Positions 1,817 to 64,000 of a DNA stretch of 64,000 bases are shown one piece after another (positions within the stretch are counted from its first letter, which is position 1; the number at the start of each line of letters is the position of its first letter). The stretch is from positions 183,286 to 247,285 of the forward strand of contig DAIQOR010000001.1 in NCBI GenBank assembly GCA_036787775.1. Reading direction: 5' to 3'. The translations under genes were made by a program, and so were the position numbers. The notes below the pieces were generated by a model, which worked only from the letters and a program-made list of their open reading frames with translations, made no database searches and had not been told where the DNA came from. This stretch comes from a bacterium. Lineage in GTDB: Archaea > Nanobdellota > Nanobdellia > Pacearchaeales > GW2011-AR1.

Positions 1817-2977
1817 ATGGTGAAATTTGCCCACATTTCTGACGTGCATTTAGGAGGCTGGAAACAAGAGCCCATGACTAAATTGAATTCCGATTCCTTC
1901 AAAAAAACAATCGACACCTGTCTACAAGAAAAAGTGGATTTCGTTTTAGTTGTCGGAGACCTTTTCGACTCGGCCTACCCTCCAATTGAAATCCTAAAAG
2001 AAACCTTCGCCCAATTCAAAAGATTAAAAGAAGCAAACATGCCATGTTTCATCATCGCCGGCTCACACGATTATTCCGTTTCAGGAAAAACATTTTTGGA
2101 CGTTTTAGAAAAAGCAGGATTCTGCAAAAATGTTTACGACGCCGAAGAAATGGGCGACAAAATAATACTCAACCCAATAATTCACAACAACGTCGCACTC
2201 TACGGATACCCTGGAAAAAAATCAGGAATGGAAATCCCAGAACTACGAAGAATAAAATTAAACGACGCCCCTGGGATGTTCAAAATTTTCCTACTCCACA
2301 CCTCAATAGACAAAGCAATCGGCACGCTACCAATAGATTCAATCGAAATAGAACTTTTACCCAAAGCGGATTATTACGCCCTCGGGCACCTACACATTGA
2401 TTTCCGACATGAAAACTTCGTCTACCCCGGCCCGATTTTCCCAAACAATTTCCAAGAACTCGAAGACCTAAAATACGGAAGCTTTTACATTGTCGACACA
2501 GAGTCAATAAACCCTTTAAAAAAAATAGAACTAAAAATAAAAGAAGTCGAATCTGTAAAAATAGAAGTAAAAAACGCACCAACAGCGACGAGCGAAATTC
2601 TTGCCGAACTTGAAAAAAGAAATTTAGAAAATAAAATTGTTTTGCTCAGAGTTAGAGGTGAATTAGAAAACGGAAAACAATCCGACGTTAAATTTCAACA
2701 AATAGAAGAATTTGTCAAACAAAAAGGGGCATATTTTCTTTTGAAAAACACGCACAATTTGAAAACAAAACAAATAGATTTGGGCATGAAGATAAAAGAC
2801 GACGAGAACGTCGAAGAGGAAACAATAAAAGTTTATTCTAAACAAAATCCCTCTAATTTTAATCATTTAATTCCTCAACTAATGGATTCACTTTCAATTG
2901 AAAAACAAGAAGATGAAAAAACAGAAGTCTTCACGAACAGGATTATCGACGAGGCAAGGAGGATTTTGAAATTCTAA
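1817..2977 (+). CDS. mre11: Mre11 DNA double-strand break repair nuclease
   Basis: It carries the calcineurin-like phosphoesterase motifs DVHLG, GDLFD, GSHD and GHLH. It is directly upstream of, and overlapping, rad50. Confidence 0.85.
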   Translation: MVKFAHISDVHLGGWKQEPMTKLNSDSFKKTIDTCLQEKVDFVLVVGDLFDSAYPPIEILKETFAQFKRLKEANMPCFIIAGSHDYSVSGKTFLDVLEKAGFCKNVYDAEEMGDKIILNPIIHNNVALYGYPGKKSGMEIPELRRIKLNDAPGMFKIFLLHTSIDKAIGTLPIDSIEIELLPKADYYALGHLHIDFRHENFVYPGPIFPNNFQELEDLKYGSFYIVDTESINPLKKIELKIKEVESVKIEVKNAPTATSEILAELEKRNLENKIVLLRVRGELENGKQSDVKFQQIEEFVKQKGAYFLLKNTHNLKTKQIDLGMKIKDDENVEEETIKVYSKQNPSNFNHLIPQLMDSLSIEKQEDEKTEVFTNRIIDEARRILKF

Positions 2978-6283: not shown

Positions 6284-8167
6284 ATGGATATTCTAAAGAA
6301 CATAATTGAAAGACTGAAAAGTAAAATTACTGAAGCGAGCTTCGAAGGCGCGAACATAGTTATTTACACAGACAACGAACGATTTTTCAAAGACGGCGAG
6401 TCACAAATAAAAGAAATAGTTAATGACATAAAAAAAAGAATCGAACTCCGAGCCGACCAAAAAATTTTACACAAACAAGAAGAAGTTGAAAAAGAAATAA
6501 AAAAAATAATCCCTGAAGAAGCCGAAGTCACAAACATAATTTTTGATTTACATCGTAGCATCGTTATCATCGAAGCAAAAAAACCAGGAATGGTTATCGG
6601 AAAGCAAGGTTCAATTTTAGACGAAATCCGGAGAAGCACAATGTGGACGCCCCAAGTTCAAAGAAGTGCCGCAATAAAAAGTCAAATCACCGACAGCATT
6701 CGAGAAGTTCTTTACGCAAATAATAATTACCGAAGAAAATTCTTAAACGAAGTCGGAACTAAAATTTACAAAGAATGGTCGCCAGACAAAGTCGAAGATT
6801 GGGTGCGATTAACAGTTTTAGGCGGAGGAAGACAAGTAGGACGAAGCTGTTTCCTTTTACAAACTCCAAATTCAAAAATACTTTTAGATTGCGGAATCGA
6901 CGTGGCTTCCCAAGGAAAAGACAAATTCCCTTACCTCGACGTCCCAGAATTCGACATCGCACAATTGGACGCGGTAATAATTTCACATGCACATTTAGAC
7001 CACATCGGGCTACTTCCTTACTTATTCAAAATGGGTTACAAAGGACCAGTTTACATGACGCCACCGACGAGAGATATCGCCGCACTTTTAGCGTTGGACT
7101 TTATCGGAGTTGCATATAAGCAAGCGTCCGCACCGTTGTTCGGTTCCAAGGACATAAAAGAAATGGTAAAACATTCAATCTGTTTAAATTATAATGAAGT
7201 CACCGACGTAATGCCGGATGTTCGATTAACTTTTTACAACGCAGGACACTGCTTAGGCTCGGCGATGGTGCACCTAAATATCGGAAACGGATTTCATAAT
7301 TTTCTTTACACCGGAGATTACAAATACGGAAAGTCAAGATTATTAGACCCAGCAGTTTCAGTTTTCCCGAGAGTGGAATCAATCATGACTGAATCAACTT
7401 ATGGTTCGAAGCAAGACATTTTACCGCCAAGACAAAAATCCGAGGAGGAACTTTTGGAAGCAGTAAACAGAACAATAAACCGAGGCGGAAAAGTTTTAAT
7501 CCCAGAATTAGGTTTGGGAAGAGCGCAAGAAACAATGTTAATTTTAGAAGACGCAATGAGTTCAGGCAAATTAAAAAAAGTCCCCGTTTACATCGACGGA
7601 ATGATTTGGGATATTAACGCAATTCACACAGCATACCCAGATTTTTTAAGCGGACGAGTGCGAACGCAAGTTTTCCAAGACCAAAATCCATTCACCTCCG
7701 ACGTATTCTCCAGAGTTGGTTCATTCCAAGAAAGAAGAGCAGTTATTGAGGGCGGACCATGCATAGTTTTAGCGACATCAGGAATGCTTGTCGGCGGAGC
7801 GTCCGTAGAATATTTCAAAGAGTTCGCGTCAAACAAAGACAACGCAATAGTTTTCGTGTGTTATCAAGGAGTGGGCTCTTTAGGACGACAAGTTCAAGAA
7901 GGAATTAAAGAAACAAGAATGAATGTCGACGGAAAAGAAGAAAAAGTCGAAATAAATTTAGAAGTAAATACAATCGCGGGACTAACCGCACACGCAGGAC
8001 GAAACGAAATAATGTCTTTCTTCAACAACATGCGACCAAAACCAAAACGAGTAATGATAAACCACGGAGAAGTTTCAAAATCTTTAGATTTAGCGTCGGC
8101 AATTTACAAACTTCACCGAGTCGAAACAAACGTCCCAAGAATTCTAGAAACTTTAAGATTGAGATAA
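6284..8167 (+). CDS. aCPSF1 / FttA beta-CASP ribonuclease (KH + metallo-beta-lactamase + beta-CASP)
   Basis: It has N-terminal KH-like domains, the HAHLDHIG motif, and the length and architecture of archaeal CPSF73 homologues. Confidence 0.8.
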   Translation: MDILKNIIERLKSKITEASFEGANIVIYTDNERFFKDGESQIKEIVNDIKKRIELRADQKILHKQEEVEKEIKKIIPEEAEVTNIIFDLHRSIVIIEAKKPGMVIGKQGSILDEIRRSTMWTPQVQRSAAIKSQITDSIREVLYANNNYRRKFLNEVGTKIYKEWSPDKVEDWVRLTVLGGGRQVGRSCFLLQTPNSKILLDCGIDVASQGKDKFPYLDVPEFDIAQLDAVIISHAHLDHIGLLPYLFKMGYKGPVYMTPPTRDIAALLALDFIGVAYKQASAPLFGSKDIKEMVKHSICLNYNEVTDVMPDVRLTFYNAGHCLGSAMVHLNIGNGFHNFLYTGDYKYGKSRLLDPAVSVFPRVESIMTESTYGSKQDILPPRQKSEEELLEAVNRTINRGGKVLIPELGLGRAQETMLILEDAMSSGKLKKVPVYIDGMIWDINAIHTAYPDFLSGRVRTQVFQDQNPFTSDVFSRVGSFQERRAVIEGGPCIVLATSGMLVGGASVEYFKEFASNKDNAIVFVCYQGVGSLGRQVQEGIKETRMNVDGKEEKVEINLEVNTIAGLTAHAGRNEIMSFFNNMRPKPKRVMINHGEVSKSLDLASAIYKLHRVETNVPRILETLRLR

Positions 8168-10806: not shown

Positions 10807-11763
10807 ATGAAACACAATCTAAAAATTACATTCATACTTCTTGCAATGTTTTTAGTAACGCAGTTCATAGGTTTAGCCGTTCTAAAGGCAGACATTTTTC
10901 ATCTTGAAATGCAAAACCCCGACGGCACAACCGAGTCCGTTCCAAATCCTTACCTCTCTTGGATTCAACCTCCCGAGATAGAAAATCAAACACAATCGGC
11001 AAGCATGTTCGGTCAAATAATTCTCGCATTCATGATGGCAATTTTCCTAATGTTCTTACTAAGTAAATTCAAAGTAGAATTCTTCCTCAAACTCTGGTTC
11101 TTCGTCGTCGTAATCGTCGCACTTTTCCTTTGCTTCTACGCTTTCGAAAAACTCGTCCCATTCATGATTCCATTAAAATATTCTTTAGTAATTCCTCTAA
11201 TCATCGCAATCCCTCTCGCCTTCGTGAAAATCTACCGAAAACAATTCCTCGTCCACAATTTAACAGAACTCTTAGTTTACCCCGGAATCTCGGTAGTTTT
11301 CATCCCCCTACTAAATATTTACACAATGATAATTTTACTAATCTTAATTTCAATCTACGACGCATGGGCAGTGTGGCACTCGGGCTTCATGCAAAAAATG
11401 GCAAAATACCAAATTGAAAAATTACAAATCTTCTCCGGCTTCTTCGTGCCCTACGCTTCAAAGAAAACAAAAGACAAAATACAAAAATGGAAAGAAACAC
11501 TTCCAAAATCAGAATTAATAAAAAAGAAAATAAAAGTAAACATGGCAATCCTCGGCGGGGGCGATGTAATTTTTCCAATAATAACGGCAGGAGTTTTCTA
11601 CAACGCCTACGGATTAGCACACGCACTCTCAGTCACAGCCGGAGCAACACTCGGATTAACTTATTTATTCTTCTTCGCAGAAAAAAAGAAATTCTACCCC
11701 GCAATGCCTTTCATCACCGCAGGAATGTTTTTAGGAATAGCGTTAGCATTCCTTATATTTTAA
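10807..11763 (+). CDS. presenilin / signal-peptide-peptidase-like GxGD intramembrane aspartyl protease (A22 family)
   Basis: It is a multi-TM protein with YD (SIYDAWAVW), GxGD (LGGGDVIFP) and a PAL-like PAMP motif in the expected order. Confidence 0.6.
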   Translation: MKHNLKITFILLAMFLVTQFIGLAVLKADIFHLEMQNPDGTTESVPNPYLSWIQPPEIENQTQSASMFGQIILAFMMAIFLMFLLSKFKVEFFLKLWFFVVVIVALFLCFYAFEKLVPFMIPLKYSLVIPLIIAIPLAFVKIYRKQFLVHNLTELLVYPGISVVFIPLLNIYTMIILLILISIYDAWAVWHSGFMQKMAKYQIEKLQIFSGFFVPYASKKTKDKIQKWKETLPKSELIKKKIKVNMAILGGGDVIFPIITAGVFYNAYGLAHALSVTAGATLGLTYLFFFAEKKKFYPAMPFITAGMFLGIALAFLIF

Positions 11764-12179
11764 CTAAATTTAAGAATTTCCGGCAATCCGGCATTTTTTC
11801 TTAGACTCATTCGTTCCAAATATCTTTTATAATTCATTTCATCACAAATACTTTTTAACCAACCCTCTTCAATTATTTCAATTTCTGAATACTGTTTCAA
11901 GCTAACCAAAAACTCTTCATGTTTGATTCCCATAATTGTTCGGTTGTTTACTGCAATCAGGCCAACGTGCGGATTAAAAATTCCATCAAAACCGGCAATT
12001 TCAATTAATTTTCCTGCATGACGATTATTTTTTTCATCACATAAAATAATATATTTTCCTAAATATCTATTAATATTTTTAATAGGATTGTTCACATATT
12101 CATCTAAAGGATTTTTTCTACCTGTAAAACCAAATGGGTTGTGTACTATTATTTTATCATCAGGTTTTTCATCATCCAT
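11760..12179 (-). CDS. hypothetical protein
   Basis: 139-aa ORF with no motif recognised. Confidence 0.4.
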   Translation of the reverse strand: MDDEKPDDKIIVHNPFGFTGRKNPLDEYVNNPIKNINRYLGKYIILCDEKNNRHAGKLIEIAGFDGIFNPHVGLIAVNNRTIMGIKHEEFLVSLKQYSEIEIIEEGWLKSICDEMNYKRYLERMSLRKNAGLPEILKFS

Positions 12180-42494: not shown

Positions 42495-42578
42495 GCGGGG
42501 GTGCCGGAGTGGTCAAACGGGACAGACTCAAGATCTGTTAGCTTAGTGCTTACGCAGGTTCGAATCCTGTCCCTCGCA
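42495..42578 (+). tRNA. tRNA-Leu (CAA)
   Basis: It is a paralogue of the preceding tRNA with anticodon loop CTCAAGA. Confidence 0.8.
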
Positions 42579-42935
42579 TTTAAGAGAAAAAACTAGATAA
42601 AATTCATCAAAGAATAAAATAATATATTTCCCTTTTTTATTCAGAAAAGAATTTTTCGTAATAACGCTTTTAGAATTAATATGATATGTTAAAGGTCTCG
42701 GTTTGTCCTTGATTAAAATTCCTTTCTTTTCTAATTTTTTAACAGTTTCTCTTAAAGAAGTATATTTACTTGTAAGATAATTTTTCTTTTCACATTTTTT
42801 TATTTTTTTAATCTCAAAGAAGTATTTTTCCTTAACATATTCCCAAATATCTATACTTGGTTTGTCAATTACATCTTTAATAAAAGATATATCTGTCTCA
42901 TTTATTCTAATTCCTTTATCATATTTTCTAACCAT
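42543..42935 (-). CDS. hypothetical wHTH-like protein (3' end overlaps tRNA-Leu)
   Basis: It is a 130-aa ORF whose last 36 nt are antisense to the tRNA-Leu(CAA) 3' end. The real C-terminus is uncertain. Confidence 0.3.
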   Translation of the reverse strand: MVRKYDKGIRINETDISFIKDVIDKPSIDIWEYVKEKYFFEIKKIKKCEKKNYLTSKYTSLRETVKKLEKKGILIKDKPRPLTYHINSKSVITKNSFLNKKGKYIILFFDEFYLVFSLKCEGQDSNLRKH

Positions 42936-45985: not shown

Positions 45986-47269
45986 ATGGCAAAAGAAAAA
46001 CCAAACATGAATGTTGTTTTCGTTGGGCACGTAGATGCAGGAAAATCAACAACAGTTGGGCAATTAATGTTCCAATCAGGCGCGGTTCCAGAAAATGAAA
46101 TGAAAAAACTTCGAGAAGAAGCTATAAAAAACGGTAAAGCTGGTTTCGAGTTCGCTTATGTTATGGACAAAATCAAAGAAGAAAGAGAAAGAGGAGTTAC
46201 AATTGACTTAGCTTATAAGAAAATTATGACTCAAAAATTCCAAATCACGATCATCGACGCACCAGGTCACAGAGACTTCGTAAAGAACATGATTACAGGT
46301 GCTTCACAAGCAGATTCTGCATTCTTAGTTATCGCAGCTCAAAGTGGAGTTCAACCACAAACAACAGAGCATTTATGGTTATTGAGAACAATGGGTGTAA
46401 AAAACATCGCAGTTGCAATTAACAAAATGGATGAAGTAGATTATTCAGAAGAAAAATATAAAAAAGTTAAAGAGGATGTTAGTGTATTATTAAAAGGTGT
46501 TGGAATAAACCCAGAAACAACTGCTTTTGTTGCTTGCTCAGGTTTGAAAGGTGAAAATATTGCAAAGAAATCTGATAAGATGCCTTGGTATAAAGGACCA
46601 ACAATATTAGAACAATTTGATTTATTCCCTGCTCCCGTACCACCAACTAATCTTCCAATGAGAATGCCTGTTCAAGACGTTTATGAAATTACAGGTATTG
46701 GAACTGTTCCAGTTGGAAAAGTAGAAACAGGAATTATGAAACAAGGAATGAAAGTTATAGTGCTTCCAGGTAGAACTGGGGATGGTGTTGCTGGAGAAGT
46801 AAAAACAATAGAAGCTCATCACGAAATTTTGCCTCAAGCAGATGCTGGAGACAACGTTGGAGTAAACATTAGAGGAGTAGGTAAGAAAGATATCGCAAGA
46901 GGAGATGTAATTTGCGACGCATCTAAACCAATCCCTGTTGTAAAAGAATTCATCGCTACAATCACCGTAATTAATCACCCAACTGTGTTAGCTAAAGGAT
47001 ACACTCCAGTATTCCATATACACACAGCTCAAGTTCCTTGCCAATTTGTAGAATTAATTGCTCAAATTGATCCAAGATCTGGGCAAGTAATAAAGGAAAA
47101 TCCTGACTTCTTGAAGAATGGAGATACTGCAAAAGTTAGAATCAAACCTCAAGGAAATTTATGTTTAGAAACTCAAGTGGAAAACCCTTTCATGAGTAGA
47201 TTTGCTGTAAGAGATGCTGGAGCAACAGTTGCTGCAGGAATGTGCACAGAAATTACAGAAAGAAAGTAA
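45986..47269 (+). CDS. tuf: translation elongation factor 1-alpha (aEF-1alpha)
   Basis: It has [17 protein letters not shown] and NKMD and is 427 aa. An oligo-T run follows the stop. Confidence 0.9.
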
Positions 47270-59495: not shown

Positions 59496-59717
59496 TTTAG
59501 TTATCGAGTTTACGAAATAACTCTCCGAAGGATATCGGACTAAATTAAAACATATTTCTGGTCTCAATTCCCGAGCATCTTTTGAAATTTTGAATAAATG
59601 AGCAAAACGAATTTAAAGAACATTTCACAGAGTGCGAGTTGCCTCGGGGCGTCCCAAAACTCTTATAAACTTCTTCTTCATTTACAAATTATATTTCATA
59701 ATGAAAGGAGGTGTGAC

Positions 59718-60164
59718 ATGATATTAGAAACATTAGGTTTAGGAAGTGAATTTGCTGGAACAGAAGCTTTAGCAGGAACTGCAGCATTAGGAGGAATAAT
59801 GGCGATAATCGCAGGATTCTTCTTAATAGCTTTAATAATTGGTTTAGCAATCTACATTTACGCTGCTGTTGCTTTAATGGCAATTGCAAAGAAAACAAAA
59901 ACTCCAAACGGATGGCTCGCTTTCATCCCAATCGCGAACATTTATTTGTTAACTCAAATGGCTGGCGTGAACGGACTTTGGACTTTGATAGTTCTTGCCC
60001 CAATAATTCCTTTCATAGGAGCTTTAGCGATGGGCGCTGTTGTGATCTGGATGTTTTGGTTAATCGTAGAGAAAATCAAATACCCTGGATGGACAAGTCT
60101 ATTAATGATAATTCCAATCGTTAATTTAGTAATGCTCGGAGTTTGGGCTTGGGCTAAGAAATAA
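59718..60164 (+). CDS. small polytopic membrane protein (paralogue of 60682-61179)
   Basis: The SD-like AGGAGGTG lies 5 nt upstream of the ATG at 59718. It shares the motif IAKK.K....WLA.IP.A with the downstream paralogue. Confidence 0.5.
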   Translation: MILETLGLGSEFAGTEALAGTAALGGIMAIIAGFFLIALIIGLAIYIYAAVALMAIAKKTKTPNGWLAFIPIANIYLLTQMAGVNGLWTLIVLAPIIPFIGALAMGAVVIWMFWLIVEKIKYPGWTSLLMIIPIVNLVMLGVWAWAKK

Positions 60165-60681: not shown

Positions 60682-61179
60682 ATGATTAACGAAACAATCG
60701 AAAACGCTTTGACCGAAGGAGTTATCGCAGGTTTGACAACCGGTTTAATTTTAGCGATGGTAGGTTTAATTTTAATTCTCCTAATAGCATTTTATGTTTA
60801 CCACGCTTTGGCTTGGAGCACAATTGCAAAAAAGAAAAAATATTCGCGACCTTGGTTAGCTTGGATACCTTTTGCAAGTTCAGCGATGAGACTTCAACTC
60901 GGCGGTTTCAACTGGGCATGGGTTTTCTTATACTTAATTCCAATTCTCGGATGGATTACAATTTTCGTTCTCTTAATAATTTCACACTGGAGAATTTTTG
61001 AATCTCTAAATTATCCTGGATGGTTAGCACTTCTTCAACTTGCAGACATCGCAGGAAGCGGAATCGGAAGCATAGCTTATTTAGTAGTCATTGGAATTGT
61101 TGCATGGAAAGAACCAGAATCAAAAATAACTCAAAGAAAAGATCTTCCTAAAAAGAAAAAATTTGTTAAAAGAAAATAA
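60682..61179 (+). CDS. small polytopic membrane protein (paralogue of 59718-60164)
   Basis: It shares TM topology and the conserved AKKKK...WLAWIPFA motif with the upstream paralogue. Confidence 0.5.
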   Translation: MINETIENALTEGVIAGLTTGLILAMVGLILILLIAFYVYHALAWSTIAKKKKYSRPWLAWIPFASSAMRLQLGGFNWAWVFLYLIPILGWITIFVLLIISHWRIFESLNYPGWLALLQLADIAGSGIGSIAYLVVIGIVAWKEPESKITQRKDLPKKKKFVKRK

Positions 61180-62028
61180 TTACTTTCCAACTTCCCCCGT
61201 TTTCTTCCAACGAATATAATTTTTCTCAAGAATTTCAACAATCCTCTGTCTCTCTTCTGCATTCCCAATTCCTTTCCAATCCAAAACAACAAACTCAACA
61301 TCCTCCTCAGTTTTTTCCATCGCTTCTTTAATCATATCTTCCGTCAAAGGTAAAACATAACTCGGAATAACATGCGAAAATGCCACGTTAGAATTCAATT
61401 GTAATTTATTAAAATTCGGACAATAATGCGGACCACCGATACCAATCGCGACTTCTCTATAAGGATTTTCTTCAAAATCATCAATCATTTTAGAAATAGT
61501 TTTCGCAATCACAAAACACGCACGCCTATCATTCCATTCTTCCTCGGTCGAACCCACCTCAATAAAAACACACGGCTTATTTATCAACGGCCCATGATGC
61601 GTGCACTCCATCGTAACGCTATATTTCTCATTCAATTTATGTTCTTTCGCGAACTTGTTCAAAACATCAAACATTTGTTTCTGAAAAAGCCCCGAACTCC
61701 GACAAACTTTGCCTCGTTCTCCACCAAAACTATTCTCACTCCAATTTCCAGGAGCATGAATCGACAAACTTTTTTCTTTTTTCTCTGACTGATGCTTCGA
61801 CGCAAAAATCACAAAATCATATTTATTAATTCTATTCAAGTCCAAATTTTCAGTTCTAATAATTTCCTCGTCACAAAGATAAAAATCAAAACCAGACTTA
61901 TCCGGTTGCATTCCTAAAAAAACCGGATTCCGTTTATACTGCGAAAGGGCAGTCGTAATATTAATTCCCGCCCGGTCTTTCTTACTCGCAACAACCAAAT
62001 ATTTTTTGTACATCTTTATTAAAAACAA
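61180..62028 (-). CDS. possible archaeal D-aminoacyl-tRNA deacylase (DtdA-like)
   Basis: The N-terminal YLVVASKKDRAGINI resembles the DtdA family. The assignment is tentative. Confidence 0.4.
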   Translation of the reverse strand: MFLIKMYKKYLVVASKKDRAGINITTALSQYKRNPVFLGMQPDKSGFDFYLCDEEIIRTENLDLNRINKYDFVIFASKHQSEKKEKSLSIHAPGNWSENSFGGERGKVCRSSGLFQKQMFDVLNKFAKEHKLNEKYSVTMECTHHGPLINKPCVFIEVGSTEEEWNDRRACFVIAKTISKMIDDFEENPYREVAIGIGGPHYCPNFNKLQLNSNVAFSHVIPSYVLPLTEDMIKEAMEKTEEDVEFVVLDWKGIGNAEERQRIVEILEKNYIRWKKTGEVGK

Positions 62029-62147
62029 ACAGAGATTTTAAGTTTTTGTGTGGTTTCATATCAAGTTTATATTAGTATATCTTAACAATAATTTAAAATT
62101 AGAAAGGCGGGGCTAAGCCCCGCCGTGGTTCGTTTCTTCCTGGATTT

Positions 62148-62603
62148 TTACATTAATCCTTTTACTATTTCGCTTAACTTTCTTCTTCCACCGCATTCTG
62201 ACCAGATTATTGGTGCTCCGATTTCTTGTGCAGTTCTTTCCTTTAATCCGCTGTCACAAGAGCAAGCTACCAGTGTTAGGTTTTTCCCCGCATCCGAGTA
62301 TTTTCTTGCTGCTCTAAGTGCTCCTTCTTTTGCATAACTCCCTACATATAGGTAAACCTTTCCCACATCTTTTTCATCAGTTTTTCCGTAGATTTGATGT
62401 AGTACTTGGCCTAACTTATTTTCAGCTTCTCTACTCCATGTATATGTGTTGTCATTGCTGTAGATTATTACTGGGCCATTTTTCCCTTCATAAGTCCCAG
62501 CAGGGAAGTTCTCTACTGAGTTGTAGGTGATTACTATTGTTGCTTTTTTCGGTTGTGCTTTTGATTTCCTTACTTTTCCTGTTTTGTTTTTTGCAATTGT
62601 CAT
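62148..62603 (-). CDS. hypothetical protein in a compositionally atypical islet
   Basis: Strong SD (TAGGAGGA) lies 6 nt upstream of the ATG. It is flanked by near-identical GC hairpins. Codon usage is GC-richer than its neighbours. Confidence 0.5.
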   Translation of the reverse strand: MTIAKNKTGKVRKSKAQPKKATIVITYNSVENFPAGTYEGKNGPVIIYSNDNTYTWSREAENKLGQVLHQIYGKTDEKDVGKVYLYVGSYAKEGALRAARKYSDAGKNLTLVACSCDSGLKERTAQEIGAPIIWSECGGRRKLSEIVKGLM

Positions 62604-62850
62604 CTTTATTCCTCCTATAATTTAATTGTGAGGCGGGGCGAAGCCCCGCTTGGTGAGGTGTGATTTGTGATGTTCTGTTTTCCATTTTCTTGTTCAGTAA
62701 AGTCCCAGTACCATTCTCTTCGCGAGGCAGATGGCTTTGTCTTGAGTCCATCTTGGGTTCTTCTCAAGCAATTCCGCCTGCACCTTCCAGATTTTTTGGT
62801 TCTGTTCCTTTCTCTGTTCTGGTGTTTTGTTTTCCATTAAAAAATTCAAG

Positions 62851-62893
62851 AAATAATTCTATATAAAACTCTGTTGTAGAAATTACTACAACA
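62851..62893 (-). promoter_or_regulatory. promoter module: palindrome TGTTGTAG-N7-CTACAACA plus TATA-like TTTTATATAG (copy 1)
   Basis: It is a 43-nt near-exact repeat of 63474-63516. On the minus strand the palindrome precedes a TATA-like box about 25 nt upstream of the putative transcription start. Confidence 0.45.
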
Positions 62894-63045
62894 ATATAAG
62901 TAAGTCATTTATTCCGTCATCAACCTTCTCCTAAAATATGTTTTATATCATTTTTCTGCGTTAATAGGTATCACGCTTCTTTTTAAATTTCTTAATCTCT
63001 TAAAATAAGAAAAAGATATTCTTTTGGAGGGATTTAAGTTTAACC

Positions 63046-63417
63046 CTATTCACAATCTTTAAAGTCGCTTGGTAAAAATTCAAGTAATTTTGAGCTTCCC
63101 CTGTTACCAGCTTGAACTGATATGTGGCCAAGAGATTTTGCTTCAGTGAAGTCGTCTATACGTAGATATGTTACTGAGTCACAAGAAAAGTATTTTTCTT
63201 GATATCTATTGTCTTTGAATAAACCAATTGTAGTTAATCCTGAAGGCATTGTCAAGGTCTGAGTTTCACAATGAACTGAATAAGCTACATAACCTGATTT
63301 TTCGTCGCTCTCTATTGCAGTTAGTCTTTTTCTTGGACCAGTGCATCGCTTCAGATATTCTCCAAGACCAGGTGCGTTGTTAATTATTCCCCTTACTTCT
63401 TCTATTGTTTTTGTCAT
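63046..63417 (-). CDS. hypothetical protein
   Basis: It is a 123-aa ORF with SD AGGAGGTG upstream. It shares a promoter module with the 62148-62603 gene. Confidence 0.5.
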   Translation of the reverse strand: MTKTIEEVRGIINNAPGLGEYLKRCTGPRKRLTAIESDEKSGYVAYSVHCETQTLTMPSGLTTIGLFKDNRYQEKYFSCDSVTYLRIDDFTEAKSLGHISVQAGNRGSSKLLEFLPSDFKDCE

Positions 63418-63467
63418 CTTTGTTCACCTCCTTACATCTGTATTCTTTTGTTTCCATGATATTTTAT

Positions 63468-63525
63468 AGAAATAATTCTATATAAAACTCTGTTGTAGAA
63501 TGAACTACAACAACAAAAGACTTAA
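63468..63525 (-). promoter_or_regulatory. promoter module: palindrome plus TATA box (copy 2), shared divergent region with the TrmB-like gene
   Basis: It has the same palindrome and TTTTATATAG as copy 1. It lies between divergent genes. Confidence 0.45.
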
Positions 63526-63550
63526 ATAGGTAGGACAATTTAAAATCAAA

Positions 63551-64000
63551 TGAACCCAGAAAAAGTATTAGAAAAAATCGGCTTCAGTCCAAATGAGATA
63601 AAAACGTATTTGGTATTAAATGAAAAAGGCTCATTACCTGCAGGAAAAGTTGCAAAGCACGCAAAGATAGACCGAAGCAGTTGTTATAATTCTCTAAAAA
63701 TTCTCCAAGAAAAAGGACTCGTAAGTTACGTAATTATTTCCAACGTAAAATATTTTCAATCAACAGGTCCAAGAAAAATTCTCGATTTCATAAAGACACA
63801 AGAGCAAGATGTCAAAGAGATAATCCCCCAACTTGAAGAAAAAAGAAAAGTAAAAACTTCCGAAGGGCAAGTAAGATTATTCAAAGGGGAAAAAGGAATC
63901 CGAACTATTTTTTTAGATATGATAAGAGAAGGCAAAGATAATTTCGTTTTTGGTTCAGAAGGACAATTTTCCGAAAGAATGCCGGAGTTCGCTTTACAAT
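63551..64000 (+). CDS. TrmB-like HTH transcriptional regulator (partial, runs off window end)
   Basis: The N-terminus (EKIGFSPNEIKTYLVLNEKGSLPAGKVAKHAKIDRSSCYNSLKILQEKGLV) matches the TrmB wHTH pattern. The frame is open to the window end. Confidence 0.5.

What the first reader, a model, noticed from the sequence alone, without database searches (positions are those of the whole stretch)
62100..63530. Compositionally atypical two-gene islet with duplicated palindrome-TATA promoter, strong SD sequences and flanking GC hairpins
Genes 62148-62603 and 63046-63417 have GC-richer codon usage. Both have strong Shine-Dalgarno sites (TAGGAGGA, AGGAGGTG), which are rare elsewhere in the window. Both are preceded on the minus strand by the same roughly 43-nt module: the palindrome TTGTTGTAG-N7-CTACAACA followed by TTTTATATAG. 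Gene 62148-62603 is bracketed by near-identical 19-nt GC hairpins (GGCGGGGCtaagCCCCGCC at 62106-62124, GGCGGGGCgaagCCCCGC at 62631-62648). It has a roughly 235-nt purine-rich leader containing a 47-aa ORF (MENKTPEQRKEQNQKIWKVQAELLEKNPRWTQDKAICLAKRMVLGLY). A TrmB-like regulator is divergently encoded from copy 2. This suggests a co-regulated, possibly horizontally acquired module with an operator palindrome.
Basis: seen in the sequence. Interest (0 to 1): 0.55.

Follow-up and report, generated by a model that had tools for sequence, protein, structure and literature searches.

The report
TrmB-type regulator's operator and target genes
The duplicated palindrome is most likely the DNA-binding site of the neighbouring TrmB-like regulator of this tiny symbiotic archaeon. 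The same site, regulator and target genes recur in dozens of related uncultured archaea, so this is a conserved, undescribed gene-control circuit and not a foreign island.

Summary
The sequence features are real. Two promoter modules share a 33-nt exact core. Each holds TGTTGTAG-N6-CTACAACA four bases from a TATA box. There are two strong Shine-Dalgarno sites, two near-identical GC hairpins, a 47-codon ORF and a divergent TrmB-like gene. The composition claim fails: GC3 is 0.298 and 0.228 against a window mean of 0.288 (sd 0.066).

Comparative data identify the module. The window is from a Pacearchaeota (DPANN) genome. Eighty metagenome loci fetched only for encoding an ortholog of the TrmB-like protein hold 90 copies of the palindrome (0.14 expected). 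In 32 of 75 loci it is centred about 51 nt before the regulator's start codon. Elsewhere it heads operons for the 151-aa protein family, for a conserved 38-58-aa protein (the "leader ORF" is a real, probably leaderless gene), and for pyrimidine and nucleotide-housekeeping enzymes.

Best reading: an autoregulated TrmB-family regulon whose operator abuts back-to-back TATA boxes. The 123-aa gene is a lineage-specific orphan, recruited by duplication of the promoter. The strong SD sites reflect a mostly leaderless genome. The hairpins are transcript-level elements. Whether the regulator activates or represses, its ligand, and the function of the 151-aa family remain unknown.

The parts
62106..62124 (-). 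3' GC hairpin (GGCGGGGC-UUA-GCCCCGCC) followed by UUUCUAAUUUU. Probable terminator or 3'-end stabiliser of the small-ORF/151-aa operon.
   Evidence: Only two such hairpins in the window. Best terminator-like site in 44-64 kb. Folds at -18.4 kcal/mol, z -4.1. In L017 the equivalent hairpin keeps pairing through one G-C to C-G swap and two G-U pairs.
62148..62603 (-). Gene for the 151-aa protein, a member of an uncharacterised alpha/beta family with nearly invariant C114, C116 and C137.
   Evidence: Sixteen close homologs, all from DPANN. 225 cluster representatives at E<=1e-3. No Pfam, PHROG, NCBIfam or PADLOC family. AF2 model with pLDDT 88.7. Only weak fold matches, TM 0.43-0.47.
62611..62616 (-). 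Shine-Dalgarno AGGAGG, 7 nt before the ATG of the 151-aa gene (an internal cistron).
62632..62650 (-). 5' (intercistronic) GC hairpin GCGGGGC-UUC-GCCCCGC, 29 nt before the 151-aa start. It lies inside a short overlapping uORF that starts at 62685.
   Evidence: The stem and flanks are conserved in L017.
62694..62837 (-). Gene for a conserved 47-aa protein (MENKTPEQ...KNPRWTQDKAICLAKRMVLGLY). It is the first cistron and probably leaderless.
   Evidence: Homologs of 38-58 aa in 13 loci, usually the first gene after the palindrome, with the ATG 35-37 nt from the palindrome end (35 nt here). Against L017 there are 10 synonymous and 8 non-synonymous codon changes.
62860..62868 (-). TATA box (TTTTATATA) of promoter copy 1. 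The TTTATATA octamer (from 62867) starts 30 nt before the ATG at 62837.
   Evidence: In the window's generic promoters the TATA octamer starts 29 nt before the ATG in 16 of 22 cases.
62872..62893 (.). Operator palindrome copy 1: TGTTGTAG-AAATTA-CTACAACA.
   Evidence: The same motif occurs in related loci.
63046..63417 (-). Gene for the 123-aa orphan protein.
   Evidence: ORF. A 9-nt SD. Only a 67-aa identical fragment was found among 5.8 billion proteins. No family hit. Absent from L017. The AF2 single-sequence model is unusable, pLDDT 36.
63424..63432 (-). Shine-Dalgarno AGGAGGUGA, a 9-nt match to the anti-SD and the strongest in the window.
63380..63457 (-). 25-codon mini-ORF (METKEYRCKEVNKDDKNNRRSKGNN*). 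Its ATG occupies the position of the 47-aa ORF's ATG in promoter copy 1. It is a remnant of the duplicated 5' end and overlaps the SD and start of the 123-aa gene.
   Evidence: (repeat D1 extends to the ATGGAAA).
63479..63487 (-). TATA box of promoter copy 2, identical to copy 1.
63491..63512 (.). Operator palindrome copy 2: TGTTGTAG-AATGAA-CTACAACA. It sits between the divergent promoters of the 123-aa gene and the TrmB-like gene.
   Evidence: The distance from the palindrome end to the TrmB ATG is 38 nt, as in 32 of 75 ortholog loci (centre -43 to -60).
63522..63529 (+). TATA-like TTAAATAG of the TrmB-like gene, 28 nt before its ATG (leaderless geometry).
   Evidence: Consensus ...AAAAGnCTTAAATAG on the TrmB side of the palindrome in orthologous loci.
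63550..64000 (+). TrmB-family regulator gene. Its first 150 of 238 codons are in the window; it runs off the window end.
   Evidence: PF01978, E 8e-14. Full length in L001. Orthologs are 62-81% identical in 80 or more loci. The profile matches solved TrmB 3QPH and TrmBL2 5BOX.

Best explanation
The region is the local core of a conserved regulon of Pacearchaeota/Woesearchaeota-type DPANN archaea.

Proposed mechanism.
- A short (238-aa) TrmB-family winged-helix protein, encoded at 63550 onward, most likely binds as a dimer to the 22-bp palindrome TGTTGTAG-N6-CTACAACA.
- The palindrome lies 4 nt upstream of the TATA box of the target promoters, so its outer bases fall in the BRE position. On the other side it lies about 9 nt upstream of the TATA box of the regulator's own, divergent, leaderless gene.
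- One bound dimer would therefore control two back-to-back core promoters, including its own (autoregulation).

The two copies in this genome.
- Copy 1 drives a bicistronic operon. The first cistron is a leaderless 47-aa conserved protein. After a 90-nt spacer with a GC hairpin comes the SD-led 151-aa Cys-triad alpha/beta protein. A second GC hairpin plus a U-tract closes the operon.
- Copy 2 is a duplicate of the copy-1 promoter and the first codons of the small gene. It now drives an orphan 123-aa gene through a 40-nt leader with a strong SD.

Why the SD sites are strong. Most genes in this genome are leaderless. SD sites are needed only for internal cistrons and for genes with leaders.

Shown here: the motif, its architecture, its conservation, and its co-occurrence with the regulator and the target families.

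Inferred:
- that this regulator is the binder;
- the sign of regulation (I lean towards repression by BRE/TFB occlusion on the 4-nt side, about 55%, against activation by TFB/TBP recruitment, about 30%);
- a nucleotide-related effector, inferred from the regulon content in other genomes;
- the role of the hairpins in transcript termination and stabilisation.
For: 1. Specificity in the window. The palindrome occurs only twice in 64 kb, both within 700 nt of the TrmB-like start.

2. Independent comparative test. Eighty metagenome loci were fetched solely for encoding an ortholog of the regulator (65-81% identity).
- They contain 90 palindromes with 2 or fewer mismatches in 423 kb, against 0.14 in shuffles.
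- In 32 of 75 testable loci a palindrome is centred 43-60 nt before the regulator's ATG.
- In 60 loci the regulator lies in a co-directional gene chain headed by a palindrome.

3. Loci fetched through the 151-aa protein all carry the palindrome upstream. This includes homologs only 30-33% identical: L005, L009, L011, L013, L014, L015 and L016.

4. Fixed architecture.
- Consensus: TATATAAA-nnTC-TGTTGTAGA-N4-TCTACAACA-GAnn-TTTATATA.
- The palindrome-to-TATA spacing is 4 nt in 51 of 78 cases.
- The small-ORF ATG lies 35-37 nt from the palindrome end in most of the loci, and 35 nt in the window.

5. Leaderless genome. The TATA octamer starts exactly 29 nt before the ATG in 16 of 22 generic promoters. 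Only 5 of 64 genes have an SD of 6 nt or more.

6. The small ORF is coding. A 13-locus family shares the motif K[HN][PR]xW[PT]QxKAxW[IM]A, and there are synonymous changes against L017.

7. Regulon content near palindromes: Maf, dCTP deaminase, UMP-kinase-like AA_kinase, NDK, AAA_28 kinase-like, UPRTase, Ham1 and dCMP deaminase.

8. Family assignment of the regulator: PF01978 at 49.8 bits, and PDB profile hits to TrmB 3QPH and TrmBL2 5BOX.

9. Duplication. The 83-nt repeat extends past the TATA box into ATGGAAA(A)CAAAA, the start of the small ORF.

10. Precedent. TrmB and TrmBL1 bind palindromes, and their effect depends on position relative to BRE/TATA (PMC4706686). TFB-RF1 activates from a site just upstream of a weak BRE (PMC5937170).
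Against: - No binding or expression data exist. The regulator-site assignment rests on co-localisation and could in principle belong to another factor.
- The sign of regulation is ambiguous. The site position (about -36 to -57) is that of known archaeal activators, yet it overlaps 1-3 bp of the BRE.
- In this organism the window shows only two sites and no nucleotide-metabolism target. The 'nucleotide' theme is extrapolated from other genomes.
- TSS positions are inferred from TATA geometry only.
- The 5' hairpin is conserved only in the closest relative, so its role is weakly supported.
- The 123-aa ORF has no comparative support as a gene.
Confidence: 0.75

Rival explanations
1. Horizontally acquired, compositionally foreign two-gene islet. 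Both genes arrived together by lateral transfer, and the hairpins mark the cassette boundaries.
For: - The 123-aa gene is an orphan and is absent from the closest relative, L017.
- Similarity among 151-aa proteins does not follow similarity among regulators (Spearman 0.05). The window protein is 61-63% identical to those of L005, L011 and L014 but only 42-46% identical to that of L017, whose regulator is 81% identical.
- Near-identical hairpins bracket the 151-aa gene exactly.
- Synonymous-codon z scores are -1.5 and -1.2, and the 151-aa gene has the highest AT skew in the window.
Against: - GC3 is ordinary and the codon scores are not outliers.
- The order small ORF, 151-aa gene, dtdA is syntenic with L017.
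- The association of regulator, operator and 151-aa family is lineage-wide.
- No integrase or transposase gene was called nearby.
- There are no phage, plasmid or IMG/VR relatives.
- The two genes have separate promoters and different evolutionary depth, so they are not one unit.
Confidence: 0.1
2. The palindrome is not a regulator's operator. It is a generic or structural promoter element (a pair of inverted BRE-like elements for TFB) or a transcript hairpin or terminator.
For: - It abuts TATA boxes on both sides and overlaps the BRE position.
- The terminator scan lists both copies as hairpin plus T-run.
- As RNA it would fold at about -10 kcal/mol.
Against: - None of the 22 generic TATA promoters in the window carries it; their BRE region is A-rich (A at -3 in 20 of 22).
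- It tracks one regulator ortholog group, at 90 observed against 0.14 expected.
- It lies upstream of both divergent TATA boxes, so neither promoter transcribes it.
- The 'T-run' after it is the TATA box itself.
Confidence: 0.05
3. Toxin-antitoxin or defence-type module. The small protein and the 151-aa protein form a conflict system under a local wHTH repressor.
For: The layout resembles many such systems: a small gene, then a gene of about 150 aa, next to an autoregulated HTH. The 151-aa gene diverges fast between close relatives.
Against: - There are no PADLOC or PHROG hits.
- Elsewhere the same operator controls housekeeping nucleotide enzymes.
- The small gene also precedes unrelated genes.
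- The regulator and the 151-aa family are also neighbours in a Patescibacteria genome, in a cell-wall gene context.
Confidence: 0.05

Closest known systems
TrmB / TrmBL1 (Tgr) regulons of Thermococcales, with the operator TGM (TATCAC-N5-GTGATA)
   Same: - N-terminal TrmB-type winged helix (PF01978) followed by a dimerisation helix.
- A palindromic operator placed next to BRE/TATA.
- One site can act on two divergent promoters.
- The outcome depends on position relative to BRE/TATA (PMC4706686).
- Control of a metabolic regulon.
   Different: - The protein is only 238 aa. No sugar-binding C-terminal domain was detected.
- NCBIfam TrmB, TrmBL1 and TrmBL2 equivalog scores are 15-26 bits against cut-offs of 500-650.
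- The operator sequence and spacing differ (8+6+8).
- The targets are nucleotide-metabolism genes plus two uncharacterised families, not sugar transport or glycolysis.
- The host is a DPANN archaeon.
TFB-RF1 (PF1088) of Pyrococcus furiosus
   Same: - A palindromic site (TCTG-N5-CAGA) lies just upstream of BRE/TATA.
- The factor regulates its own operon (PMC5937170).
- The site has the same position class as here.
   Different: It is a different protein and motif. Its activation mechanism (TFB recruitment at a weak BRE) has been demonstrated there and is only one of two possibilities here. The BRE region here is not clearly weak.
SurR-type single-site control of divergent archaeal promoters
   Same: One bound factor sits between two divergently transcribed units and affects both. 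This is cited in PMC4706686 as a comparable case.
   Different: The family (ArsR-like, redox-switched), motif and regulon all differ. The tight 4-nt symmetric TATA-operator-TATA geometry seen here is not part of that description.

Membership tests
TrmB family of archaeal transcription regulators | N-terminal TrmB-type winged helix-turn-helix (Pfam PF01978) above the gathering score | tested here: met
   51.6 bits on the 150 aa in the window and 49.8 bits on the full 238 aa, against a cut-off of 25.6.
TrmB family of archaeal transcription regulators | Sequence similarity to solved TrmB or TrmBL2 that extends beyond the HTH into the dimerisation region | tested here: met
   The profile of 6 orthologs hits 3QPH (TrmB) residues 6-141 at E 3e-7, and 5BOX (TrmBL2) residues 13-189 at E 4e-5.
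TrmB family of archaeal transcription regulators | C-terminal sugar-binding effector domain, as in TrmB and TrmBL1 | tested here: not met
   No Pfam domain besides the HTH in the full-length protein. NCBIfam TrmB, TrmBL1 and TrmBL2 equivalogs score 15-26 bits against cut-offs of 500-650. It is a family member by its HTH, but not an ortholog of any characterised subfamily.
TrmB family of archaeal transcription regulators | Sequence-specific binding of a dimer to a palindromic operator at regulated promoters | not testable with these tools
   Supported only by co-occurrence: 90 sites against 0.14 expected next to orthologs, with a fixed position at about -51. EMSA or footprinting is needed.
Leaderless archaeal mRNA (47-aa gene and TrmB-like gene) | Start codon at or within a few nt of the TSS, meaning a TATA box about 25-30 nt upstream of the ATG and no SD | tested here: met
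   The TATA octamer starts 30 nt (47-aa gene) and 28 nt (TrmB-like gene) before the ATG. The genome-typical distance is 29 nt, in 16 of 22 promoters. There is no SD. The TSS itself has not been measured.
P-loop GTPase (FeoB G-domain-like), the best fold match of the 151-aa protein | Walker A motif GxxxxGK[ST] and a close structural superposition | tested here: not met
   There is no Walker A motif among the conserved columns; the nearly invariant residues are Y27, G36, Y86, G88, C114, C116, K121, C137 and G139. Foldseek gives TM 0.43-0.47 and rmsd 7-8 A only. The protein is not a member.
Hairpin-plus-U-tract transcript terminator (3' hairpin 62106-62124) | Stable GC stem directly followed by a U-rich tract downstream of a stop codon, with the structure maintained in relatives | tested here: met
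   8 GC pairs, -18.4 kcal/mol, tail UUUCUAAUUUU, 23 nt after the stop codon. The L017 counterpart keeps pairing through one compensatory swap and two G-U pairs. Termination itself has not been measured.

The most novel reading that the evidence does not exclude
The module is the visible end of an undescribed control circuit for the nucleotide pool, specific to ultra-small symbionts. In this reading a short TrmB-type factor acts with an uncharacterised Cys-triad alpha/beta protein and a roughly 45-aa micro-protein. It senses a nucleotide-related or thiol/redox signal. From one operator wedged between back-to-back TATA boxes it switches pyrimidine-salvage and nucleotide house-cleaning genes (Maf, Ham1, dCTP/dCMP deaminases, NDK, UMP kinase, UPRTase). 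The regulator and the 151-aa family are neighbours even in a Patescibacteria (CPR) bacterium. That would point to a functional partnership, such as sensor plus DNA binder, shared across the two domains of reduced-genome episymbionts.
Probability: 0.3. Interest if true: 0.75.

Novelty: new member of a known kind. Interest (0 to 1): 0.58.

Why it matters
DPANN archaea are uncultured or barely cultured, and I found no paper that describes a transcription-factor regulon for them. Here the operator motif, the regulator, the promoter geometry and a first target list can be read directly from sequence. That makes several things testable:
- an EMSA or footprint with one small protein and a 22-bp site;
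- a ligand screen guided by a nucleotide-metabolism regulon;
- two conserved protein families of unknown function (the 151-aa Cys-triad family and the 38-58-aa micro-protein) placed in a defined physiological context.

It also shows that this genome is largely leaderless, which is useful for gene calling and small-ORF annotation in these lineages.

Tried and rejected
- GC3 and codon-usage test of the 'foreign islet' idea: ordinary GC3, z scores -1.5 and -1.2. Rejected as a signal.
- Pfam, PHROGs, NCBIfam and PADLOC on the three proteins: nothing.
- Pfam on 130 diverse members of the 151-aa family: nothing consistent; two weak receiver-domain fusions.
- PDB sequence-profile searches with A1 and A2: nothing significant.
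- AF2 on the 123-aa orphan without an alignment: pLDDT 36, unusable.
- BLAST of the 123-aa protein against ORFs of related loci: no homolog.
- Rfam on 61900-63700: only sub-threshold chance hits.
- Search for looser operator copies in the window (TGTTG-N12-CAACA, 1 mismatch): only intragenic chance-like hits besides the two known copies.
- Attempt to align the 5' leader and hairpin with the conserved leader motif of L009/L011: not convincingly homologous. I did not build a covariance model.
- Phage, plasmid and IMG/VR searches for both proteins: no match.
- Literature searches for a DPANN TrmB regulon or for the motif: nothing relevant.
Full report
**What is in the sequence**

The window has 34.6% GC. 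The identical 151-aa protein is deposited as a hypothetical protein of a Candidatus Pacearchaeota archaeon, a DPANN lineage.

All elements below lie on the minus strand between 62100 and 63530. They are listed here from 63530 downward, in the direction of transcription.
- A 22-bp perfect palindrome, TGTTGTAG-N6-CTACAACA, at 63491-63512.
- Four bases later, TTTTATATA.
- A 40-nt leader with AGGAGGTGA.
- A 123-aa ORF (63417-63046).
- A T-rich spacer.
- A second copy of the same palindrome and TATA box (62893-62860).
- A 47-codon ORF whose ATG (62837) lies 30 nt after the first base of the TATA octamer.
- A 90-nt spacer with a 7-bp GC hairpin.
- AGGAGG.
- A 151-aa ORF (62603-62148).
- 23 nt after its stop codon, an 8-bp GC hairpin followed by UUUCUAAUUUU.

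On the plus strand, 38 nt beyond palindrome copy 2 and 28 nt after a TTAAATAG box, starts a gene with a TrmB-type winged helix (PF01978, E 8e-14). It runs off the window. The full protein is 238 aa in metagenome contigs that are identical to the window over the 4 kb compared.

**Check of the observation**

- The two promoter modules share 76% identity over 83 nt, with a 33-nt exact core. The 25-nt core and the palindrome each occur exactly twice in 64 kb, where shuffles give 0 and 0.2.
- The spacer is N6, not N7.
- The GC hairpins are the only two of their kind in the window. They fold at -18.4 and -14.7 kcal/mol.
- Strong SD sites are indeed rare. Only 5 of 64 genes have a match of 6 nt or more, and the two genes of the finding are among them.
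- The composition claim fails. GC3 is 0.298 and 0.228 against a window mean of 0.288 (sd 0.066). The small GC excess sits in second codon positions (0.42 in both genes), which reflects amino-acid composition.
- A leave-one-out synonymous-codon likelihood places the two genes at z = -1.48 and -1.18 (ranks 6 and 8 of 64). That is mildly atypical and far from the extreme of -3.4 for 10807-11763.

**Why strong SD sites are rare here**

Twenty-two genes in the window have a recognisable TATA octamer. In 16 of them it starts exactly 29 nt before the ATG, and 48 of 64 genes have no SD-like sequence at all. This is the geometry of leaderless mRNAs.

SD sites appear at internal cistrons (2977, 13086) and at genes with leaders. 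The 151-aa gene is a second cistron and the 123-aa gene has a 40-nt leader. Their strong SD sites are therefore expected and are not a sign of foreignness.

**The proteins**

*The 151-aa protein.*
- It has no Pfam, PHROG, NCBIfam or PADLOC family.
- It has 16 close homologs (45-68% identity), all from DPANN metagenomes.
- A profile search of 1.84 billion cluster representatives finds 225 at E<=1e-3.
- Across 130 diverse members the nearly invariant residues are Y27, G36, Y86, G88, C114, C116, K121, C137 and G139.
- AlphaFold2 with the family alignment gives a confident alpha/beta model: pLDDT 88.7, with element order b-b-b-a-b-a-b-a-b-a.
- The three cysteines lie just after strands 5 and 6. 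That suggests a metal or redox site, but this is inference.
- Foldseek against PDB and BFVD returns only generic G-domain-like matches (TM 0.43-0.47, rmsd 7-8 A). The family has no Walker A motif.
- A few members are fused to, or directly follow, a receiver domain.

*The 123-aa protein.* It is an orphan. Only an identical 67-aa fragment was found. There is no family hit, no homolog in related loci, and no usable structure model.

*The 47-aa ORF.* It is a real gene.
- Homologs of 38-58 aa occur in 13 loci and share the motif K[HN][PR]xW[PT]QxKAxW[IM]A.
- They are usually the first gene after a palindrome, with the ATG 35-37 nt from its end (35 nt in the window).
- Against the closest relative, L017, there are 10 synonymous and 8 mostly conservative non-synonymous codon changes.

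**The palindrome is a conserved operator linked to the TrmB-like protein**

*Loci fetched through the 151-aa protein.* All carry the same palindrome upstream, and most have the TrmB-like gene nearby.
- L005: TGTTGTAGAATAATCTACAACA before the 151-aa homolog, and a degenerate copy before the adjacent regulator gene.
- L009 and L011: copies between divergent TATA boxes.
- L013, L014, L015 and L016, the last two with 151-aa homologs only 30-33% identical.

*An independent test.* I fetched 80 metagenome loci solely because they encode an ortholog of the regulator (65-81% identity; 313 relatives were found in all).
- They hold 90 palindromes with 2 or fewer mismatches in 423 kb, against 0.14 in shuffles.
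- In 32 of 75 testable loci one is centred 43-60 nt before the regulator's ATG.
- In 60 loci the regulator is the first to fifth gene of a co-directional chain headed by a palindrome.

*Architecture.* The consensus is TATATAAA-nnTC-TGTTGTAGA-N4-TCTACAACA-GAnn-TTTATATA. The palindrome sits between two divergent TATA boxes, and the palindrome-to-TATA spacing is 4 nt in 51 of 78 scored cases. On the regulator's side the spacer is longer (about 9 nt) and A-rich, like the generic BRE region of this genome.

*Regulon content.* Genes that follow palindromes in these loci include:

| Gene family | Loci |
|---|---|
| 151-aa family | 16 |
| Small protein (38-58 aa) | 13 |
| Unknown ~81-aa family | 8 |
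| Maf | 7 |
| dCTP deaminase | 7 |
| UMP-kinase-like AA_kinase | 6 |
| AAA_28 kinase-like protein | 6 |
| NDK | 4 |
| Ham1 | 2 |
| dCMP deaminase | 2 |
| UPRTase | 2 |

The theme is pyrimidine salvage and nucleotide house-cleaning. I found no paper that describes this regulon or motif.

**How it most likely works**

The regulator belongs to the TrmB family by its HTH and by profile similarity to solved TrmB and TrmBL2. It is not an ortholog of any characterised subfamily, and it lacks a detectable sugar-binding domain.

By analogy with TrmB and TrmBL1, which bind palindromes next to BRE/TATA (PMC4706686), a dimer on the 22-bp site would occupy about -36 to -57 of the target promoters.
- On the 4-nt side the outer 1-3 bp of the site fall in the BRE. 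This favours repression by exclusion of TFB, as TrmB does on the TM promoter.
- The same position class is used by activators, namely TrmBL1 at upstream TGMs and TFB-RF1 (PMC4706686, PMC5937170).

I put repression at about 55%, activation at about 30%, and opposite effects on the two sides at about 15%. The regulator's own promoter carries the site, so the circuit is autoregulated. The effector is unknown; the regulon content suggests a nucleotide-related metabolite.

**Origin of the two copies**

In L017 the regulator is 81% identical, the small protein 83%, and DtdA 64%. The palindrome-small ORF-151-aa homolog-dtdA order is the same, but the 123-aa gene is absent and other genes lie between the operon and the regulator.

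In the window the repeat extends beyond the TATA box into ATGGAAA(A)CAAAA, the first codons of the small ORF. In copy 2 this survives as a 25-codon mini-ORF that overlaps the SD and start of the 123-aa gene. So the promoter and the 5' end of the small gene were duplicated. The duplicate now drives the orphan gene and also serves as the regulator-proximal operator.

**The hairpins**

*The 3' hairpin.* It is the best terminator-like site in 44-64 kb. Its counterpart in L017 (GCCGGGC-UUA-GUCUGGC) keeps pairing through one G-C to C-G swap and two G-U pairs. G-U pairs form only in RNA of the coding strand. This supports a transcript-level role: termination or 3' protection before dtdA.

*The 5' hairpin.* Its stem and flanks are conserved in L017, but it is absent from more distant genomes.
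- It lies inside a short uORF. In L017 and L009 the uORF's stop codon overlaps the start of the main gene as ATGA.
- It lacks a U-tract.
- I read it as an intercistronic element that uncouples or stabilises the 151-aa cistron. Support for this is weak.

**Horizontal transfer**

The module as a whole is native. GC3 is ordinary, the operon is syntenic with L017, the association is lineage-wide, no mobile-element genes were called nearby, and there are no phage, plasmid or IMG/VR relatives.

Two caveats remain.
- The 123-aa gene is lineage-specific.
- Pairwise identities of the 151-aa family do not track those of the regulator (Spearman 0.05). The window protein is closer to those of distant genomes than to that of L017. 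This indicates paralogy or cassette exchange.

**Verdict**

The 'foreign islet' reading is not. What is there is a new, conserved member of a known kind: an autoregulated TrmB-family regulon. It has a new operator, a compact operator-between-TATA-boxes geometry, and two uncharacterised conserved target families.

Noticed in passing
window, whole (e.g. promoters before 11760-12179, 42543-42935, 45986-47269, 60682-61179): The genome looks largely leaderless. In 16 of 22 genes with a recognisable TATA octamer, the octamer starts exactly 29 nt before the ATG, and A is found 3 nt upstream of it in 20 of 22. In addition, 48 of 64 genes have no SD-like sequence.
   Followed up: partly
L097 2655-5516 (Patescibacteria group bacterium, GCA_964361915.1): A member of the 151-aa family (171 aa) lies 1.6 kb downstream of a TrmB-like gene (251 aa). 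That gene is 26% identical over its full length to the window's regulator. The context is bacterial (MreC, PBP2). The regulator and the 151-aa family are therefore neighbours in CPR bacteria as well as in DPANN archaea. The DPANN palindrome is not present there, but a TGTTG-N11-CAACA lies in the AT-rich intergenic region.
   Followed up: partly
L009 3937-3975; L011 1247-1285 and 3948-3985: A conserved 36-nt leader motif, AGAGCGGyrGmAGAGGCCGArAAACCACTkCAAACA, lies about 10-20 nt before the SD of the 151-aa homologs. In L011 it also precedes an unrelated 153-aa gene divergent from the regulator. The N-terminal extension of protein P0016 is a translation of the same motif. It is not found in the window.
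   Followed up: partly
L015 about 7985-8005; L018, L031, L066, L082/L083, upstream of 151-aa homologs: A second recurrent upstream motif, GAGCACGACGCnATGAAGCA, lies between the palindrome promoter and the SD of several distant 151-aa homologs. Its nature is unknown; it could be a short uORF start or an RNA element.
   Followed up: no
Downstream of 151-aa homologs in L005, L009, L013, L014, L015, L017: A recurrent 3' motif, AAAAGAGGTGA followed by a T-rich run, lies 20-30 nt after the stop codon. It is an SD-like GAGGTGA at gene ends and may be a low-GC terminator hairpin. It is not present in the window, which has the GC hairpin instead.
   Followed up: no
window 62148-62603 compared with L017 2217-2771 and other loci: Pairwise identity among 151-aa homologs does not follow identity among the adjacent regulators (Spearman 0.05). 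With L017 the regulator is 81% identical but the 151-aa protein only 42-46%. With L011 the regulator is 43% identical but the 151-aa protein 61%. This suggests paralog replacement or exchange of the cassette that the two hairpins bracket.
   Followed up: partly
window 62488-62685 (-); L017 about 2768-2845 (-); L009 3906-4004: A short uORF starting M-E/K-N/T... encloses the 5' hairpin or leader motif just upstream of the 151-aa gene. In L017 and L009 its stop codon overlaps the main start as ATGA, a translational-coupling geometry. In the window it runs 65 codons out of frame into the 151-aa gene.
   Followed up: partly
L014 7356-7751 (and L020); proteins P0047, P0096: A CheY-like receiver-domain protein directly precedes the 151-aa homolog in place of the small ORF. 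In two family members a weak receiver-domain match is fused N-terminally to the 151-aa domain. Other members of 450-500 aa carry the domain at their N-terminus with no recognisable partner domain.
   Followed up: partly
window 59598-60164 (+) and 60682-61179 (+): Two paralogous small membrane proteins with sub-threshold DUF5684 matches flank a 142-aa gene just downstream of dtdA.
   Followed up: no
window 10807-11763 (+): This gene has the most atypical synonymous codon usage in the window (z = -3.4) and a GC3 of 0.43. On that criterion it is a better candidate for foreign origin than the two genes of the finding.
   Followed up: no
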